Part shown: in pieces, positions 10,905 to 24,085 of the stretch
How the letters are laid out: each line of letters opens with the position of its first letter
How positions within the stretch are numbered: position 1 is the stretch's first letter
Assembly: GCF_057098645.1 (NCBI RefSeq)
Contig: NZ_CM169472.1
Length of the DNA stretch: 64,000 nt
Reading direction: 5' to 3' (one strand)
The notes under the pieces: model-generated
The model's input: the letters and a program-made list of their open reading frames with translations, nothing else
What the model was told of the DNA's origin: nothing
Database searches by the model: none
Translations under genes and position numbers: made by a program

Positions 10905-10990
10905 GCTAGATGAGGACTGTTTCATTTCTGCCCGGAACCACCAAGTCTTGGGCGGAAAAAATAAAAAAACCGACTGTCATGTCGGTTTTT
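10905..10990 (+). ncRNA. Candidate antisense sRNA (IstR/AgrB-like antitoxin), about 86 nt
   Basis: Starts about 7 nt after the -10; 5' end tgctagatgaggactg (10904-10919) is a direct repeat of 10718-10733, so it is complementary to the toxin 5' UTR; ends in hairpin ccgac-tgtcat-gtcgg followed by a T7 tract. Confidence 0.5.
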
Positions 10991-11055
10991 TTATATCTGT
11001 ATTCTGGTGCAACCATTCTGTTCTCACGACAATCGCCGTTTCAGAATACCGCCCA

Positions 11056-13934: not shown

Positions 13935-14750
13935 ATGACGGAAGTTAGACGGCGCGGCAGGCCAGGACAGGCGGAGCCTGTGGCACAGAAGGGCGCACAG
14001 GCATTAGAGCGGGGAATTGCGATTCTGCAATATCTGGAAAAAAGTGGGGGAAGTTCATCGGTTAGCGATATTTCTCTCAATCTGGATTTGCCGCTCTCCA
14101 CGACCTTTCGCTTGCTGAAGGTTTTACAGGCAGCGGATTTTGTCTATCAGGACAGTCAGTTAGGCTGGTGGCATATAGGATTAGGTGTCTTTAACGTCGG
14201 TGCAGCGTACATCCATAACCGCGATGTCCTCTCCGTCGCCGGGCCGTTTATGCGCCGTCTGATGTTACTTTCCGGCGAAACGGTCAATGTCGCGATCCGT
14301 AACGGCAATGAAGCGGTATTAATTGGTCAGTTAGAGTGTAAATCGATGGTCAGGATGTGTGCGCCACTGGGCAGTCGTCTGCCACTGCATGCTTCCGGTG
14401 CGGGCAAAGCGCTGCTTTATCCGCTGGCGGAAGAGGAGTTGATGAGCATCATTCTGCAAACCGGTTTGCAGCAGTTTACGCCAACTACGCTTGTGGATAT
14501 GCCCACCTTACTGAAGGACCTGGAGCAAGCGCGTGAACTGGGCTATACCGTAGATAAAGAAGAGCATGTTGTAGGTCTGAATTGCATAGCTTCAGCAATT
14601 TACGATGATGTAGGTAGTGTTGTTGCCGCTATCTCCATCTCCGGGCCTTCATCAAGACTGACAGAAGATCGTTTTGTCAGTCAGGGTGAGCTGGTCAGAG
14701 ACACCGCCCGCGATATCAGCACGGCGTTGGGACTGAAAGCACATCCATAG
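13935..14750 (+). CDS. allR: IclR-family repressor AllR
   Basis: 271 aa; N-terminal HTH and IclR effector domain. Confidence 0.9.
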
Positions 14751-14762
14751 TGTCTGTCGCAT

Positions 14763-14787
14763 CCCGCTCTGCGGAGCGGGTTTTTTT
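14763..14787 (+). terminator. Rho-independent terminator after allR
   Basis: cccgctc-tgcg-gagcggg followed by ttttttt. Confidence 0.7.
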
Positions 14788-17509: not shown

Positions 17510-18388
17510 ATGAAACTGGGATTTATTGGCTTAGGCATTATGGGTACACCGATGGCCATTAATCTGGCGCGTGCCGGTCATCAACTGCATGTCACAACCA
17601 TTGGTCCGGTTGCTGATGAATTACTGTCACTGGGTGCCGTCAGTGTTGAAACTGCGCACCAGGTAACGGAAGCATCGGACATCATTTTTATTATGGTGCC
17701 GGATACACCACAGGTTGAAGAAGTTCTGTTCGGTGAAAATGGTTGTACCAAAGCCTCGCTGAAGGGCAAAACCATTGTTGATATGAGCTCCATTTCCCCG
17801 ATTGAAACTAAACGTTTCGCTCGTCAGGTGAATGAACTGGGCGGTGATTATCTCGATGCGCCAGTCTCCGGCGGCGAAATCGGCGCGCGTGAAGGTACGT
17901 TGTCAATTATGGTTGGCGGTGACGAAGCGGTATTTGAACGTGTTAAACCGCTATTTGAACTGCTCGGTAAAAATATCACCCTTGTGGGCGGTAACGGCGA
18001 CGGTCAAACCTGCAAAGTGGCAAATCAGATTATTGTGGCGCTCAATATTGAAGCGGTCTCTGAAGCTCTGCTGTTTGCTTCAAAAGCCGGTGCAGACCCG
18101 GTACGTGTGCGCCAGGCGCTGATGGGCGGCTTTGCTTCCTCACGTATTCTGGAAGTTCACGGTGAGCGCATGATTAAACGCACCTTTAATCCAGGTTTCA
18201 AAATTGCGCTGCACCAGAAAGATCTCAACCTGGCACTGCAAAGTGCGAAGACACTGGCGCTGAACCTGCCAAACACCGCGACCTGCCAGGAGTTATTTAA
18301 TACCTGTGCGGCAAACGGTGGCAGCCAGTTGGATCACTCTGCGTTAGTGCAGGCGCTGGAATTAATGGCGAATCATAAACTGGCCTGA
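17510..18388 (+). CDS. glxR: Tartronate semialdehyde reductase
   Basis: 292 aa; NAD-binding GFIGLGIMG. Confidence 0.9.
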   Translation: MKLGFIGLGIMGTPMAINLARAGHQLHVTTIGPVADELLSLGAVSVETAHQVTEASDIIFIMVPDTPQVEEVLFGENGCTKASLKGKTIVDMSSISPIETKRFARQVNELGGDYLDAPVSGGEIGAREGTLSIMVGGDEAVFERVKPLFELLGKNITLVGGNGDGQTCKVANQIIVALNIEAVSEALLFASKAGADPVRVRQALMGGFASSRILEVHGERMIKRTFNPGFKIALHQKDLNLALQSAKTLALNLPNTATCQELFNTCAANGGSQLDHSALVQALELMANHKLA

Positions 18389-18419
18389 TACCCGCAATAA
18401 AAATGGCCGATATCAGAAT

Positions 18420-18698
18420 ATGAATCGGCCAGCAATATTAAAAAAGAAAGCAGCCAAAGATGTTGCTTCAGTATTAAAAATAATATTTTTATTTTATTTG
18501 TTCCTCATAGCTAGATTAAAACAACGTTATTCGATACGTGAAATTAAGAGGGATTTATGGAACATCAGAGAAAACTATTCCAGCAACGCGGCTATAGCGA
18601 AGATCTATTGCCGAAAACGCAAAGCCAGCGGACCTGGAAAACATTTAACTATTTTACCTTATGGATGGGTTCGGTTCATAACGTTCCCAATTATGTGA
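18420..18698 (+). CDS. ybbV: Small predicted ORF (YbbV-like) overlapping the start of ybbW
   Basis: 92-aa ORF in an AT-rich stretch; no clear SD; coding status doubtful. Confidence 0.2.
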   Translation: MNRPAILKKKAAKDVASVLKIIFLFYLFLIARLKQRYSIREIKRDLWNIRENYSSNAAIAKIYCRKRKASGPGKHLTILPYGWVRFITFPIM

Positions 18699-20011
18699 TG
18701 GTCGGCGGCTTTTTTATTCTCGGCTTGTCTACCTTTAGTATTATGTTGGCAATTATCCTCAGCGCCTTTTTCATTGCCGCGGTAATGGTATTAAACGGTG
18801 CTGCGGGCAGTAAATACGGCGTACCGTTTGCCATGATCCTGCGTGCTTCTTACGGCGTACGTGGCGCACTGTTTCCCGGATTATTAAGAGGCGGTATTGC
18901 TGCCATTATGTGGTTTGGCCTGCAATGTTACGCGGGGTCACTGGCCTGCTTGATTCTGATTGGCAAAATCTGGCCGGGATTTTTGACTCTCGGTGGTGAT
19001 TTCACTCTGTTAGGCCTTTCTCTACCGGGCTTAATTACTTTCTTACTCTTCTGGCTGGTCAACGTTGGTATAGGTTTTGGCGGTGGCAAAGTTTTAAATA
19101 AATTCACTGCCATTCTTAACCCGTGCATCTATATCGTTTTCGGCGGTATGGCGATTTGGGCGATTTCGCTGGTCGGGCTCGGTCCAATCTTTGACTACAT
19201 TCCGAGCGGTATTCAGAAAGCAGAAAACAGTGGATTCTTGTTCCTGGTGGTGATTAACGCGGTAGTTGCGGTCTGGGCGGCACCGGCGGTGAGCGCATCC
19301 GACTTTACGCAAAACGCCCACTCGTTTCGTGAGCAAGCGCTGGGGCAAACGCTGGGTTTAGTTGTGGCCTATATTCTGTTTGCGGTCGCTGGGGTATGTA
19401 TTATTGCCGGAGCCAGTATTCACTACGGCGCTGACACCTGGAACGTGCTGGATATTGTTCAGCGTTGGGACAGCCTGTTTGCCTCGTTCTTTGCGGTACT
19501 GGTTATTCTGATGACGACCATTTCCACTAACGCCACCGGTAATATTATTCCGGCCGGTTATCAGATTGCTGCCATTGCACCGACAAAACTGACCTATAAA
19601 AACGGCGTACTGATTGCCAGTATTATCAGCCTGCTGATCTGCCCGTGGAAATTAATGGAAAATCAGGACAGTATTTATCTGTTCCTCGATATCATCGGCG
19701 GAATGCTGGGTCCGGTAATTGGTGTCATGATGGCGCATTATTTTGTGGTGATGCGTGGGCAAATTAATCTTGATGAACTGTACACCGCACCTGGCGATTA
19801 TAAATATTACGATAACGGTTTTAACCTCACCGCGTTTTCAGTAACTCTGGTGGCCGTTATTTTATCTCTTGGCGGTAAGTTTATTCCCTTTATGGAACCG
19901 TTATCGCGTGTTTCATGGTTTGTCGGCGTCATCGTCGCCTTTGCGGCCTACGCCTTATTAAAGAAACGTACAACAGCAGAAAAAACAGGAGAGCAAAAAA
20001 CCATAGGTTAA
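18557..20011 (+). CDS. ybbW: Allantoin permease (NCS1 family)
   Basis: 484-aa multi-TM ORF. Confidence 0.85.
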   Translation: MEHQRKLFQQRGYSEDLLPKTQSQRTWKTFNYFTLWMGSVHNVPNYVMVGGFFILGLSTFSIMLAIILSAFFIAAVMVLNGAAGSKYGVPFAMILRASYGVRGALFPGLLRGGIAAIMWFGLQCYAGSLACLILIGKIWPGFLTLGGDFTLLGLSLPGLITFLLFWLVNVGIGFGGGKVLNKFTAILNPCIYIVFGGMAIWAISLVGLGPIFDYIPSGIQKAENSGFLFLVVINAVVAVWAAPAVSASDFTQNAHSFREQALGQTLGLVVAYILFAVAGVCIIAGASIHYGADTWNVLDIVQRWDSLFASFFAVLVILMTTISTNATGNIIPAGYQIAAIAPTKLTYKNGVLIASIISLLICPWKLMENQDSIYLFLDIIGGMLGPVIGVMMAHYFVVMRGQINLDELYTAPGDYKYYDNGFNLTAFSVTLVAVILSLGGKFIPFMEPLSRVSWFVGVIVAFAAYALLKKRTTAEKTGEQKTIG

Positions 20012-24001: not shown

Positions 24002-24013
24002 ACCTGAATTTAC

Positions 24014-24043
24014 TACAAAAAAAGCCACGGTATAAACCGTGGC
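24014..24043 (-). terminator. Rho-independent terminator after allE
   Basis: gccacggt-ataa-accgtggc hairpin with a T-run on the minus strand. Confidence 0.6.
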
Positions 24044-24085
24044 AAAATCCAACATAGCTAAAAATAATCAGGCGAGTGGTATGAC

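What the first reader, a model, noticed from the sequence alone, without database searches (positions are those of the whole stretch)
18420..18698. Small ORF overlapping the 5' end of the allantoin permease gene
A 92-aa ORF begins in the AT-rich glxR–ybbW spacer and runs into ybbW in another frame. It has no obvious SD and a basic, low-complexity composition. It may be the ORF annotated as ybbV in K-12, but it may equally be non-coding leader sequence.
Basis: inference. Interest (0 to 1): 0.15.

Follow-up and report, generated by a model that had tools for sequence, protein, structure and literature searches.

The report
Spurious ybbV ORF over allW leader
The 92-codon reading frame is the old E. 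coli 'ybbV' annotation, and it is almost certainly not a gene: it is an accidental open frame running across a deletion scar, the conserved leader of the allantoin transporter gene allW, and the first 47 codons of allW read out of frame.

Summary
The ORF is real as a string: ATG 18420 to TGA 18698, 92 aa, identical to UniProt YBBV_ECOLI (b0510). Every test for a gene fails.

- **Annotation.** The held RefSeq K-12 record jumps from b0509 to b0511, and 40 sampled PGAP-annotated E. coli genomes do not call it.
- **Frame in E. coli.** An A6/A7 tract at codons 7-9 is A6 in 3393 complete genomes and A7 in 1646. In A7 genomes the ATG frame stops after 31 codons.
- **Frame elsewhere.** It is broken in E. 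whittamii, a divergent "E. coli E69", Salmonella, Citrobacter, Klebsiella and others.
- **Selection.** Substitutions in the overlap fall 66/61/256 on allW codon positions 1/2/3.
- **Signals.** No Shine-Dalgarno, off-frame codon usage, and the U and G of the ATG sit in a -15 kcal/mol hairpin stem.

What lies underneath:
1. A post-glxR hairpin.
2. A ~44-nt relic of the 3' end of an MFS transporter gene that still sits between glxR and allW in Salmonella, Citrobacter and Klebsiella. It is read in its old frame with the stop lost.
3. A ~60-nt allW leader with two conserved blocks, found only upstream of allW, mechanism unknown.
4. allW codons 1-47 in the +1 frame.

The finding is ordinary. The leader is a minor open lead.

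The parts
17510..18388 (+). glxR (tartronate semialdehyde reductase), the upstream gene; context only
   Evidence: ORF; annotated glxR in E. coli records
18404..18431 (+). Stable stem-loop just after the glxR stop (UGGCCGAUAUCAGAAUAUGAAUCGGCCA). The U and G of the ybbV ATG (18420-18422) are paired in its 3' arm. There is no U-tract on the + strand; the tail is U-rich on the minus strand.
   Evidence: strand folding -15.4 kcal/mol, z -4.6, 0 of 200 shuffles as stable. The structure is kept with different loop and inner-stem sequence in 'E. coli E69' and E. whittamii. Tail counts.
18420..18698 (+). The 92-codon ORF (historical ybbV / b0510); judged non-coding
18440..18445 (+). Poly-A tract, A6 here. 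The A7 allele shifts the frame so that the ATG-18420 frame ends at a TAG after 31 codons.
   Evidence: Alignment A1. An exact 66/67-nt match finds A6 in 3393 and A7 in 1646 complete E. coli genomes. ORF consequences.
18436..18479 (+). Relic of the last ~14 codons and stop region of an MFS transporter gene that lies between glxR and allW in Salmonella, Citrobacter FP75/werkmanii, Klebsiella and Raoultella. It is read by the ORF in the ancestral frame (AILKKKAAKDVASVL against Salmonella VTLYKKKATQRIASA*), with the stop lost through a 1-nt indel.
   Evidence: Collinear BLASTN to L010 (E 7e-17) and to Salmonella L131 (75% over 162 nt, E 2e-25). Codon comparison. MFS gene.
18448..18468 (+). Weak hairpin AAGCAGC/GUUGCUU inside the relic. 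The homologous hairpin sits in the 3' end of the MFS gene in Citrobacter and Salmonella.
   Evidence: strand folding -6.6 kcal/mol, z -2.3; homologous site flagged in L010
18498..18516 (+). allW leader block 1: TTGTTCCTCATAGCTAGAT (consensus TTGTTCCNCATAGCTAAAC)
   Evidence: Alignments A2-A4. Mean pairwise identity 0.71 against 0.33-0.41 in the flanks. Found only upstream of allW.
18524..18540 (+). allW leader block 2: ACGTTATTCGATACGTG (consensus ACGTWATYCGATRCGTG). It may form a 4-bp ACGU/ACGU hairpin.
18546..18553 (+). Shine-Dalgarno sequence of allW (AAGAGGGA)
   Evidence: anti-SD duplex -6.3 kcal/mol; SD-to-ATGGAA stretch 91% conserved
18557..20011 (+). allW (ybbW), allantoin transporter of the NCS1 family. 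Codons 1-47 are overlapped by the ORF in the +1 frame.
   Evidence: function from PMC10163214

Best explanation
The ORF is a non-coding, accidental open frame. It was once annotated as ybbV/b0510 and is no longer in the held RefSeq K-12 record. It joins four unrelated pieces:
1. An ATG that sits in a stable hairpin just downstream of glxR.
2. About 44 nt left from the 3' end of an MFS transporter gene deleted in the Escherichia lineage. This piece is still read in its old frame, but its stop codon was lost to an indel.
3. The AT-rich spacer and the conserved allW leader, which have no stop in this frame in about two thirds of E. coli.
4. The first 47 codons of allW read in the +1 frame.

The DNA does its work as the glxR-allW intercistronic region of the gcl-hyi-glxR-allW-allB-ybbY-glxK operon. 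The hairpin lacks a U-tract on the + strand, so read-through is expected (inferred). A conserved leader with a strong SD drives or modulates allW translation (inferred; mechanism not shown).

Shown here: the ORF, its identity with YbbV, the frame disruptions, the substitution pattern, the relic homology and the leader conservation. Inferred: that the ORF is not translated, and what the hairpin and leader do.
For: - **Annotation.** The held NC_000913.3 goes from b0509 to b0511 with no b0510. None of 40 E. coli genomes sampled across the ranking annotate anything between glxR and allW. The 2023 AllW paper lists the operon without ybbV (PMC10163214).
- **Population.** The A-tract is A6 in 3393 and A7 in 1646 complete genomes. 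In A7 genomes (ST69, SF166, KW21) the frame has no ATG left before position +136.
- **Phylogeny.** The ATG-to-stop ORF is intact only in A6 E. coli and Escherichia sp. E1V33. It is broken in 'E. coli E69', E. whittamii and every other genus examined.
- **Selection.** Across 13 species, differences in the overlap fall 66/61/256 on allW codon positions 1/2/3. allW-frame identity is 75-100% against 43-91% in the ybbV frame, and 7 of 13 species have premature stops in the ybbV frame. Salmonella and an Enterobacter-like genome behave the same way.
- **Synonymous sites.** Synonymous divergence of allW codons 2-47 lies within the range of the rest of the gene, at the 11th-25th percentile.
- **Signals.** Codon-usage log-ratio is -0.40, against +0.2 to +0.6 for neighbouring genes. 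The SD duplex is -1.5 kcal/mol against -6.3 to -8.4. The U and G of the ATG are paired in a -15.4 kcal/mol hairpin stem.
- **Homologs.** Only 9 database proteins match, all E. coli or Shigella where a source names the organism, with no Pfam or NCBIfam family. The one 58%-identical hit comes from an assembly in which the reading frame drifts into the allW frame.
- **Relic.**
- **Leader is not coding.** The distance from the start of block 1's GTTCC core to block 2's CGAT core is 31-35 nt, counted by eye on the sequences, so it changes by amounts that are not multiples of three.
Against: - The spacer has no stop in this frame, which is locally unusual: 0.4% of shuffles give an ORF this long.
- No ribosome-profiling or proteomic data for allantoin- or glyoxylate-induced cells could be consulted, so weak or lineage-specific translation in A6 strains is not excluded.
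- ASKA overexpression clones of ybbV came up in two screens (PMC8228696, PMC10299036). That shows an effect of forced expression, not native function.
- Absence from RefSeq reflects curators' and pipeline rules, not an experiment.
Confidence: 0.9

Rival explanations
1. YbbV is a genuine, young, lineage-restricted small protein: 92 aa, basic, with one hydrophobic stretch. It would be made only in E. coli lineages that carry the A6 allele.
For: The ORF is intact in about 64% of complete E. coli genomes. The stop-free run is locally improbable. The transcript exists as part of the gcl operon and is induced with it (PMC2241611).
Against: Frameshifted in 1646 genomes and broken in sister Escherichia species. 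No SD, start codon in a hairpin, off-frame codon usage. Substitutions ignore its frame. No family or homolog.
Confidence: 0.05
2. The ORF acts as a regulatory upstream ORF. Ribosomes reading it across the allW Shine-Dalgarno and start would couple or occlude allW initiation, whatever the peptide sequence.
For: It spans the allW ribosome-binding site and ends 141 nt inside allW. Such arrangements can modulate downstream initiation (general knowledge).
Against: An upstream ORF that mattered should persist as an ORF. It is lost in A7 E. coli and in all other genera, while allW and its leader are conserved. It also has no ribosome-binding signal of its own.
Confidence: 0.03
3. This is complementary to the main explanation, not exclusive of it. 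The conserved stretch under the ORF (18498-18561) would be a cis-regulatory RNA leader of allW. A GUUCC/GGAAC helix would pair block 1 with the G of the AUG plus the next four bases (GAAC) and enclose an ACGU/ACGU hairpin, which would gate translation initiation or mark a processing or protein-binding site.
For: - Blocks at 71-74% identity against 33-41% in the flanks, in taxa whose allW synonymous sites differ about half the time.
- The leader travels with allW whether the upstream gene is glxR, the MFS gene or another gene.
- The both-block motif occurs only upstream of allW in a metagenome-wide scan, and each block alone occurs only there in 0.9 Mb of held loci.
- RNAalifold predicts the two helices.
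- 96.5% of cells are paired, with one G-C to U-A double change in Buttiauxella and only wobble-compatible changes in the inner hairpin.
Against: - Only 9 pairs, and the consensus energy is -6.7 kcal/mol.
- The E. coli fold has z = -1.9.
- The single covariation is one lineage.
- Atlantibacter, O157 and E. whittamii weaken the outer helix.
- The structure was derived from these same sequences.
- The longest conserved runs are unpaired, which fits a protein or DNA site just as well.
- No Rfam family matches.
- The covariance model finds nothing beyond the training clade.
Confidence: 0.2
4. The spacer encodes, or terminates, a minus-strand (antisense) transcript over the allW leader, and the post-glxR hairpin is its intrinsic terminator.
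For: In five sequence-unrelated post-glxR hairpins of Enterobacteriaceae, the U-rich tail is on the minus strand (6-7 T of 10) and not on the plus strand (1-4 T). The scan tool flags minus-strand terminators in L132 and L010.
Against: - No conserved minus-strand promoter.
- No Rfam hit on either strand.
- Both flanks of the hairpin are A-rich on the + strand, so base composition may explain the asymmetry.
- The wobble changes in the inner hairpin would be A-C mismatches on the minus strand.
- The minus-strand ORF that starts in the reverse complement of block 1 varies from 4 to 19 codons (read by eye from the sequences).
Confidence: 0.08

Closest known systems
YbbV (b0510, UniProt YBBV_ECOLI), 'uncharacterized protein' of E. 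coli K-12
   Same: Identical 92-aa sequence and identical position between glxR and ybbW/allW.
   Different: Nothing differs; this is that ORF. It is no longer in the held RefSeq K-12 record, and no paper found gives evidence of native expression or function.
Shadow (overprinted) ORFs: chance open frames that overlap real genes in another frame
   Same: Half of the ORF is allW read in the +1 frame. Substitutions follow only the allW frame. About 50 comparable shadow ORFs of 92-199 aa occur in this window.
   Different: The upstream half lies in a spacer rather than inside a gene, and part of it is a former coding tail kept in frame.
Gene remnants / deletion scars (pseudogene fragments)
   Same: 18436-18479 is collinear with, and in the same frame as, the last codons of the MFS transporter gene that sits between glxR and allW in Salmonella, Citrobacter, Klebsiella and Raoultella.
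   Different: Only about 14 codons survive and the stop has been lost, so the fragment is fused to unrelated sequence on both sides.
STM0521 'ybbV' of Salmonella Typhimurium LT2 ('putative cytoplasmic protein', PMC3405474)
   Same: Same gene name and same neighbourhood. The Salmonella locus fetched here has an 84-codon +1-frame ORF that starts at an ATG 20 nt before allW and reads the same out-of-frame allW codons.
   Different: It begins inside leader block 2, not in a post-glxR hairpin. It shares only the out-of-frame allW part, at 53% identity, against 88% for AllW over the same bases. That STM0521 is this ORF is my inference; LT2 itself was not examined.
Intercistronic stem-loops and 5' leaders that tune expression within operons (for example REP-type stabilising hairpins, or translational operators)
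   Same: A stable hairpin after the upstream cistron, without a + strand U-tract, and a conserved leader ending in a strong SD.
   Different: No sequence relation to REP or to any Rfam family. No experimental evidence of processing, stabilisation or regulation.

Membership tests
Protein-coding gene (conserved small protein) | The reading frame is kept open, with the same start, in related strains and species | tested here: not met
   A7 frameshift in 1646 of about 5300 E. coli genomes. Broken in E. whittamii, 'E. coli E69', Salmonella, Citrobacter, Klebsiella, Raoultella, Buttiauxella and others.
Protein-coding gene (conserved small protein) | Substitutions show purifying selection in its own frame | tested here: not met
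   Differences fall 66/61/256 on allW codon positions 1/2/3. ybbV-frame identity is 43-91% against 75-100% for allW. Stops appear in 7 of 13 species. allW synonymous divergence is not depressed.
Protein-coding gene (conserved small protein) | Translation-initiation signals: a Shine-Dalgarno sequence and an accessible start codon | tested here: not met
   anti-SD duplex -1.5 kcal/mol against -6.3 to -8.4 for neighbouring genes. The U and G of the ATG are paired in a -15.4 kcal/mol hairpin.
Protein-coding gene (conserved small protein) | Codon usage and composition like those of host genes | tested here: not met
   log2 ratio of in-frame to off-frame codon usage is -0.40, against +0.22 to +0.61. 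GC3 is 0.33 against 0.42-0.53.
Protein-coding gene (conserved small protein) | Homologs or a recognised protein family | tested here: not met
   9 hits, all E. coli or Shigella where a source names the organism, with no Pfam domain apart from allW-frame chimeras. No NCBIfam family.
Protein-coding gene (conserved small protein) | Direct evidence of translation (Ribo-seq, mass spectrometry, tagged protein) | not testable with these tools
   No such data reachable. Papers that mention ybbV give operon lists, a microarray, RNA-seq (one calls it, without evidence, a transcription factor), a deletion list and ASKA overexpression only.
Regulatory leader peptide / upstream ORF | An upstream ORF is conserved wherever the regulated gene and its leader are conserved | tested here: not met
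   The leader and allW are conserved across Enterobacteriaceae, but the ORF is not. Block spacing varies 31-35 nt, so no common frame exists (counted by eye).
Intrinsic (Rho-independent) terminator of the + strand, for the hairpin 18404-18431 | A GC-rich stem-loop followed directly by a U-tract on the transcribed strand | tested here: not met
   The stem-loop is present, but the + strand tail is GCAAUAUUAA, with 3 T in 10. The scan finds no terminator.
Any Rfam RNA family, for the spacer and leader | A covariance-model score at or near the gathering threshold | tested here: not met
   No hit in the spacer at gathering thresholds. The best sub-threshold hits have E 0.37-6.9 and lie far below the cut-offs.
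Pseudogene relic of the glxR-allW MFS transporter gene | Collinear nucleotide homology to the gene's 3' end, at the same position relative to allW and in the same frame | tested here: met
   BLASTN gives E 7e-17 to Citrobacter and 2e-25 to Salmonella, with the alignment starting inside the MFS coding tail and running into the leader. Codon-by-codon frame match.

The most novel reading that the evidence does not exclude
The ~60-nt conserved stretch hidden under the ORF (18498-18561: blocks TTGTTCCNCATAGCTAAAC and ACGTWATYCGATRCGTG, plus the SD and AUGGAAC) could be an undescribed cis-regulatory element specific to the allantoin transporter gene of Enterobacteriaceae. One form would be a small leader RNA that pairs with the start-codon region. 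Another would be the target or body of an antisense transcript ending at the minus-strand-oriented post-glxR hairpin. Either would uncouple allW-allB expression from gcl-hyi-glxR within one operon.
Probability: 0.2. Interest if true: 0.4.

Novelty: not a real feature. Interest (0 to 1): 0.1.

Why it matters
Mostly as housekeeping. It gives explicit comparative grounds for leaving ybbV/b0510 out of E. coli annotation, and for distrusting the hits that ybbV ASKA clones or array probes produced in screens. The same-named Salmonella ORF may deserve the same treatment.

Two small by-products have some value:
- E. coli lost an MFS transporter gene from the middle of the allantoin/glyoxylate operon and still carries its last ~14 codons. 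This dates and localises a change in the pathway's transport repertoire.
- allW carries a clade-wide conserved leader that nobody seems to have described. It could explain how the transporter and allantoinase genes are expressed differently from the glyoxylate genes upstream.

Tried and rejected
- **Transcription-factor or regulon site.** The leader blocks do not recur elsewhere in the window or in 0.9 Mb of related loci. A metagenome-wide scan for both blocks found them only upstream of allW, plus chance matches in GC-rich coding DNA. By eye they do not resemble the palindrome-like sequence in the gcl promoter region. From memory of consensus sequences they do not fit sigma-54, sigma-28 (the block spacing varies), PurR, Cra, NAC, FNR, ArcA or RutR. 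These last comparisons are recollection, not tests.
- **Internal sigma-70 promoter for allW.** No consensus-like site in E. coli, Salmonella or Citrobacter, and only chance-level sites at non-conserved positions in Klebsiella and an Enterobacter-like genome.
- **AllZ sRNA pairing with the leader.** The duplex energy is no better than shuffles (-43.6 against -42.7 +/- 4.6). The published AllZ partners are grcA, ftsZ and bssR.
- **Small minus-strand ORF starting in the reverse complement of block 1 (ATGNGGAACAA).** Its length is 4 codons in E. coli and Salmonella, 6 in Raoultella, 10 in Citrobacter and 19 in K. spallanzanii, so it is not conserved (by eye).
- **P0005, a 91-aa protein 58% identical to YbbV.** It comes from an assembly whose ORF drifts into the allW frame, so it is an artefact.
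- **Covariance model of the leader.** It found no more distant homologs in Serratia, Rahnella, Budvicia, Providencia, Photobacterium or Firmicutes.
- **Literature.** A search for 'b0510' returned only unrelated reference codes. Two supplement searches for TSS or antisense data on ybbW/glxR found nothing, and one DOI was not held.

Full report
**Observation.** The ORF is exactly as described: ATG at 18420, TGA ending at 18698, 92 codons, + strand. It starts 32 nt after the glxR stop, inside the 168-nt glxR-allW spacer. It then runs 141 nt into allW (18557..20011) in the +1 frame. The window is E. coli; the 501 nt around the site are 100% identical to O145 strain RM9872. The predicted product is identical to UniProt YBBV_ECOLI and to the W3110, DH10B and DH1 entries. 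So this is the historical ybbV/b0510.

**Is it more than chance?** Window-wide it is not. The window holds 64 ORFs of 92-199 aa, about 50 of them completely inside longer ORFs. Locally it is a little unusual. The AT-rich spacer has no stop in this frame but 4 and 6 in the other two, and only 0.4% of dinucleotide shuffles of the spacer give an ORF this long. Ancestry explains part of that, as described below.

**Annotation and literature.** The held RefSeq record of K-12 MG1655 goes from b0509 (glxR) to b0511 (allW) with no b0510. None of 40 E. coli genomes sampled evenly down the ranking annotate anything under the match except glxR and allW. Eight papers mention ybbV:
- Two list it in the operon name.
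- One is an O157 microarray in which it rises with gcl.
- One lists it among the genes deleted in a genome-reduced strain.
- Two are ASKA overexpression screens.
- One is an RNA-seq study that calls it, without evidence, a transcription factor.
- One is a Salmonella array.

None shows native translation. The 2023 paper that renamed ybbW to allW lists the operon without ybbV.

**Frame conservation within E. coli.** An alignment of eight E. coli sequences shows a length polymorphism in the A-tract at 18440-18445, which is codons 7-9. Exact-match searches with the two alleles find A6 in 3393 complete genomes and A7 in 1646. With A7 the ATG-18420 frame ends at a TAG after 31 codons. The remaining downstream frame has no ATG before position +136. 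A gene under selection would not carry a frameshift in a third of the species.

**Frame conservation between species.** One scan of species-representative genomes with AllW gave 80 loci. Salmonella and an Enterobacter-like contig were added later. The full ORF exists only in A6 E. coli and the near-identical Escherichia sp. E1V33. It is interrupted in every other genome examined:
- 'E. coli E69' and E. whittamii
- Salmonella
- four Citrobacter
- two Klebsiella and Raoultella
- two Superficieibacter
- three Buttiauxella
- Atlantibacter
- two Izhakiella
- more distant genera.

**Selection.** In the 47-codon overlap, differences between E. coli and 13 other species fall 66, 61 and 256 on allW codon positions 1, 2 and 3. 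allW position 3 is position 2 of the ybbV frame, so every 'silent' allW change alters the hypothetical YbbV. Identity is 75-100% in the allW frame and 43-91% in the ybbV frame. Seven of the 13 species have a premature stop in the ybbV frame. Salmonella and the Enterobacter-like genome behave the same way. The synonymous divergence of allW codons 2-47 (0.47, 0.36 and 0.17 for three taxon sets) lies inside the distribution of 46-codon windows from the rest of the gene, at the 25th, 11th and 15th percentiles. So there is no sign of a second coding constraint.

**Intrinsic signals.** The region upstream of the ATG has no Shine-Dalgarno (-1.5 kcal/mol against -6.3 to -8.4 for allW, glxR, allB and hyi). 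The ORF's codon usage looks like an off-frame sequence (-0.40 against +0.22 to +0.61) and its GC3 is 0.33. The ATG lies in a stable hairpin at 18404-18431 (-15.4 kcal/mol, z = -4.6), with its U and G paired. The protein search returned nine sequences, all E. coli or Shigella where a source names the organism, several of them chimeras with the allW frame. The only divergent hit comes from an error-ridden assembly. No NCBIfam family matches.

**What is really there, part 1: a deletion scar.** An MFS transporter gene of 415-440 codons sits between glxR and allW in Salmonella, Citrobacter FP75, C. werkmanii, K. spallanzanii, K. oxytoca and Raoultella. Its best NCBIfam match is the D-galactonate-transporter subfamily, far below the cut-off. 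From 18436 rightward, the E. coli spacer is collinear with the last ~41 nt of that gene, its downstream spacer and the allW leader. BLASTN gives E 7e-17 to Citrobacter, and 75% identity over 162 nt (E 2e-25) to Salmonella. Codon by codon, E. coli reads AILKKKAAKDVASVLKII where Salmonella ends VTLYKKKATQRIASA*. So ybbV codons 5-18 are the old C-terminal tail of the MFS protein in its original frame. A one-base indel has moved the TAA stop out of frame. The left part of the spacer (18389-18435, with the hairpin) has no counterpart in those genomes. The Escherichia lineage therefore deleted the MFS gene and kept a ~44-nt stub. This helps explain why the frame is open there.

**What is really there, part 2: a conserved allW leader.** The 60 nt before the allW ATG contain two conserved blocks. 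They are TTGTTCCNCATAGCTAAAC (18498-18516) and ACGTWATYCGATRCGTG (18524-18540), followed by AAGAGGGAWTTATGGAAC. Among 11 lineages the blocks are 71-74% identical and the SD-start stretch 91%. The flanking linkers are 33-41% identical, and roughly half of the allW codons that keep the same amino acid differ between species.

The leader accompanies allW whatever lies upstream: glxR, the MFS gene or another gene. A metagenome scan for both blocks found true matches only in front of allW. Neither block occurs elsewhere in the window or in 0.9 Mb of held loci. The distance from block 1's GTTCC to block 2's CGAT is 31-35 nt (my count on the sequences), so the conservation is not protein-coding in any frame.

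No Rfam family matches. RNAalifold proposes a GUUCC/GGAAC helix that pairs block 1 with the G of the AUG plus the next four bases (GAAC), enclosing an ACGU/ACGU hairpin. On 22 distinct sequences 96.5% of cells pair. There is one G-C to U-A double change (Buttiauxella), and the inner hairpin varies only by wobble-compatible transitions. This support is weak:
- only nine pairs, with a consensus energy of -6.7 kcal/mol
- a z-score of -1.9 for the E. coli fold
- exceptions in Atlantibacter, O157 and E. whittamii
- a structure derived from the same sequences.

A covariance model finds nothing outside the training clade. I could not identify a promoter or a known operator. I leave the mechanism open and rate a cis-regulatory RNA at about 0.2.

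**What is really there, part 3: the hairpin.** It is kept in E. whittamii and 'E. coli E69' with different loop and inner-stem sequence. In E69 the ATG is gone. It has no U-tract on the + strand, which fits read-through within the gcl-to-glxK operon (inference). Its minus-strand tail is U-rich. The same orientation holds for five unrelated post-glxR hairpins in other Enterobacteriaceae (tool-flagged). This could mean a terminator for antisense transcription over the allW leader. It could also be a by-product of A-rich flanks. I found no promoter, no Rfam hit, no conserved minus-strand ORF and no published antisense data. It stays unexplained.

**Comparison with what is known.** The ORF is YbbV itself, so identity is not in question. 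What fails is membership in the class 'protein-coding gene': frame conservation, selection, initiation signals, codon usage and homologs were all tested and not met. Only direct translation data could not be tested. The ORF behaves like a shadow ORF joined to a pseudogene stub. The Salmonella LT2 'ybbV' (STM0521) is probably an analogous +1-frame ORF. In the Salmonella locus examined here, an 84-codon ORF starts at an ATG inside block 2, 20 nt before allW. LT2 itself was not examined, so this is inference.

**Verdict.** As a candidate gene it is not a real feature (confidence 0.9) and interest is low (0.1). The most novel reading left open is that the conserved allW leader, possibly together with the oddly oriented hairpin, is an undescribed regulatory element (probability about 0.2, interest about 0.4 if true).

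Noticed in passing
window 18436-18479; L010 1081-2403; L015 1111-2412; L131 1158-2405: E. coli has lost an MFS transporter gene (415-440 aa) that lies between glxR and allW in Salmonella, some Citrobacter, Klebsiella and Raoultella. Only its last ~14 codons survive in the E. coli spacer.
   Followed up: yes
window 18498-18561 and the homologous leaders in L008-L023, L031, L037, L038, L131, L132: A two-block conserved leader occurs immediately upstream of allW across Enterobacteriaceae and Izhakiella. It is found only in front of allW and matches no Rfam family. A weak two-helix RNA model is possible.
   Followed up: partly
window 18404-18431; L132 2397-2420; L016, L018, L023, L038 post-glxR hairpins: The GC-rich hairpins after glxR differ in sequence between genera, but all carry their U-rich tail on the minus strand. 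They look like terminators for antisense transcription rather than for glxR.
   Followed up: partly
L028-L030, L032, L033 (Listeria newyorkensis, booriae, grandensis, rustica, portnoyi): The AllW homologs of these Listeria species are 77-79% identical to E. coli AllW, whereas other Firmicutes are 51-59% identical. This suggests horizontal transfer between Enterobacterales and this Listeria group.
   Followed up: no
L012 (CACSKA010000001.1, labelled Chryseobacterium sp. 18061): The glxR-allW region of this contig has the same leader as Citrobacter sp. 18056 (L013) and is about 90% identical to E. coli AllW. The assembly label looks wrong, or the assembly is contaminated.
   Followed up: no
L003 (E. 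coli M15) column 213 of alignment A1; L004 (O157:H7 YB14-1): In strain M15, allW is annotated as a frameshifted pseudogene, with a T inserted at about codon 11. In the O157:H7 genome, allW is annotated at 1392 nt instead of 1455 nt.
   Followed up: no
window 24013-24079 (+), 10906-10994 (+), 45497-45570 (+), 14553-14787 (+): Rfam hits at gathering score are STnc480 sRNA, AgrB antisense RNA and one tRNA. The K-12 sRNA AllZ (the allR 3'UTR) maps to 14553-14787.
   Followed up: no
L008 about 2300-2350 ('E. coli E69'): This divergent Escherichia genome carries an extra ~35 nt (aaaaaggcatcgttgccgataaagcctcgatgcct) between the glxR stop and the hairpin. Its hairpin lacks the ATG.
   Followed up: no
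L004 (O157:H7) column 123 of alignment A1, equivalent to window 18500: O157:H7 has TTTTTTCC instead of TTTGTTCC in leader block 1. This removes the G of the proposed GUUCC/GGAAC helix.
   Followed up: no
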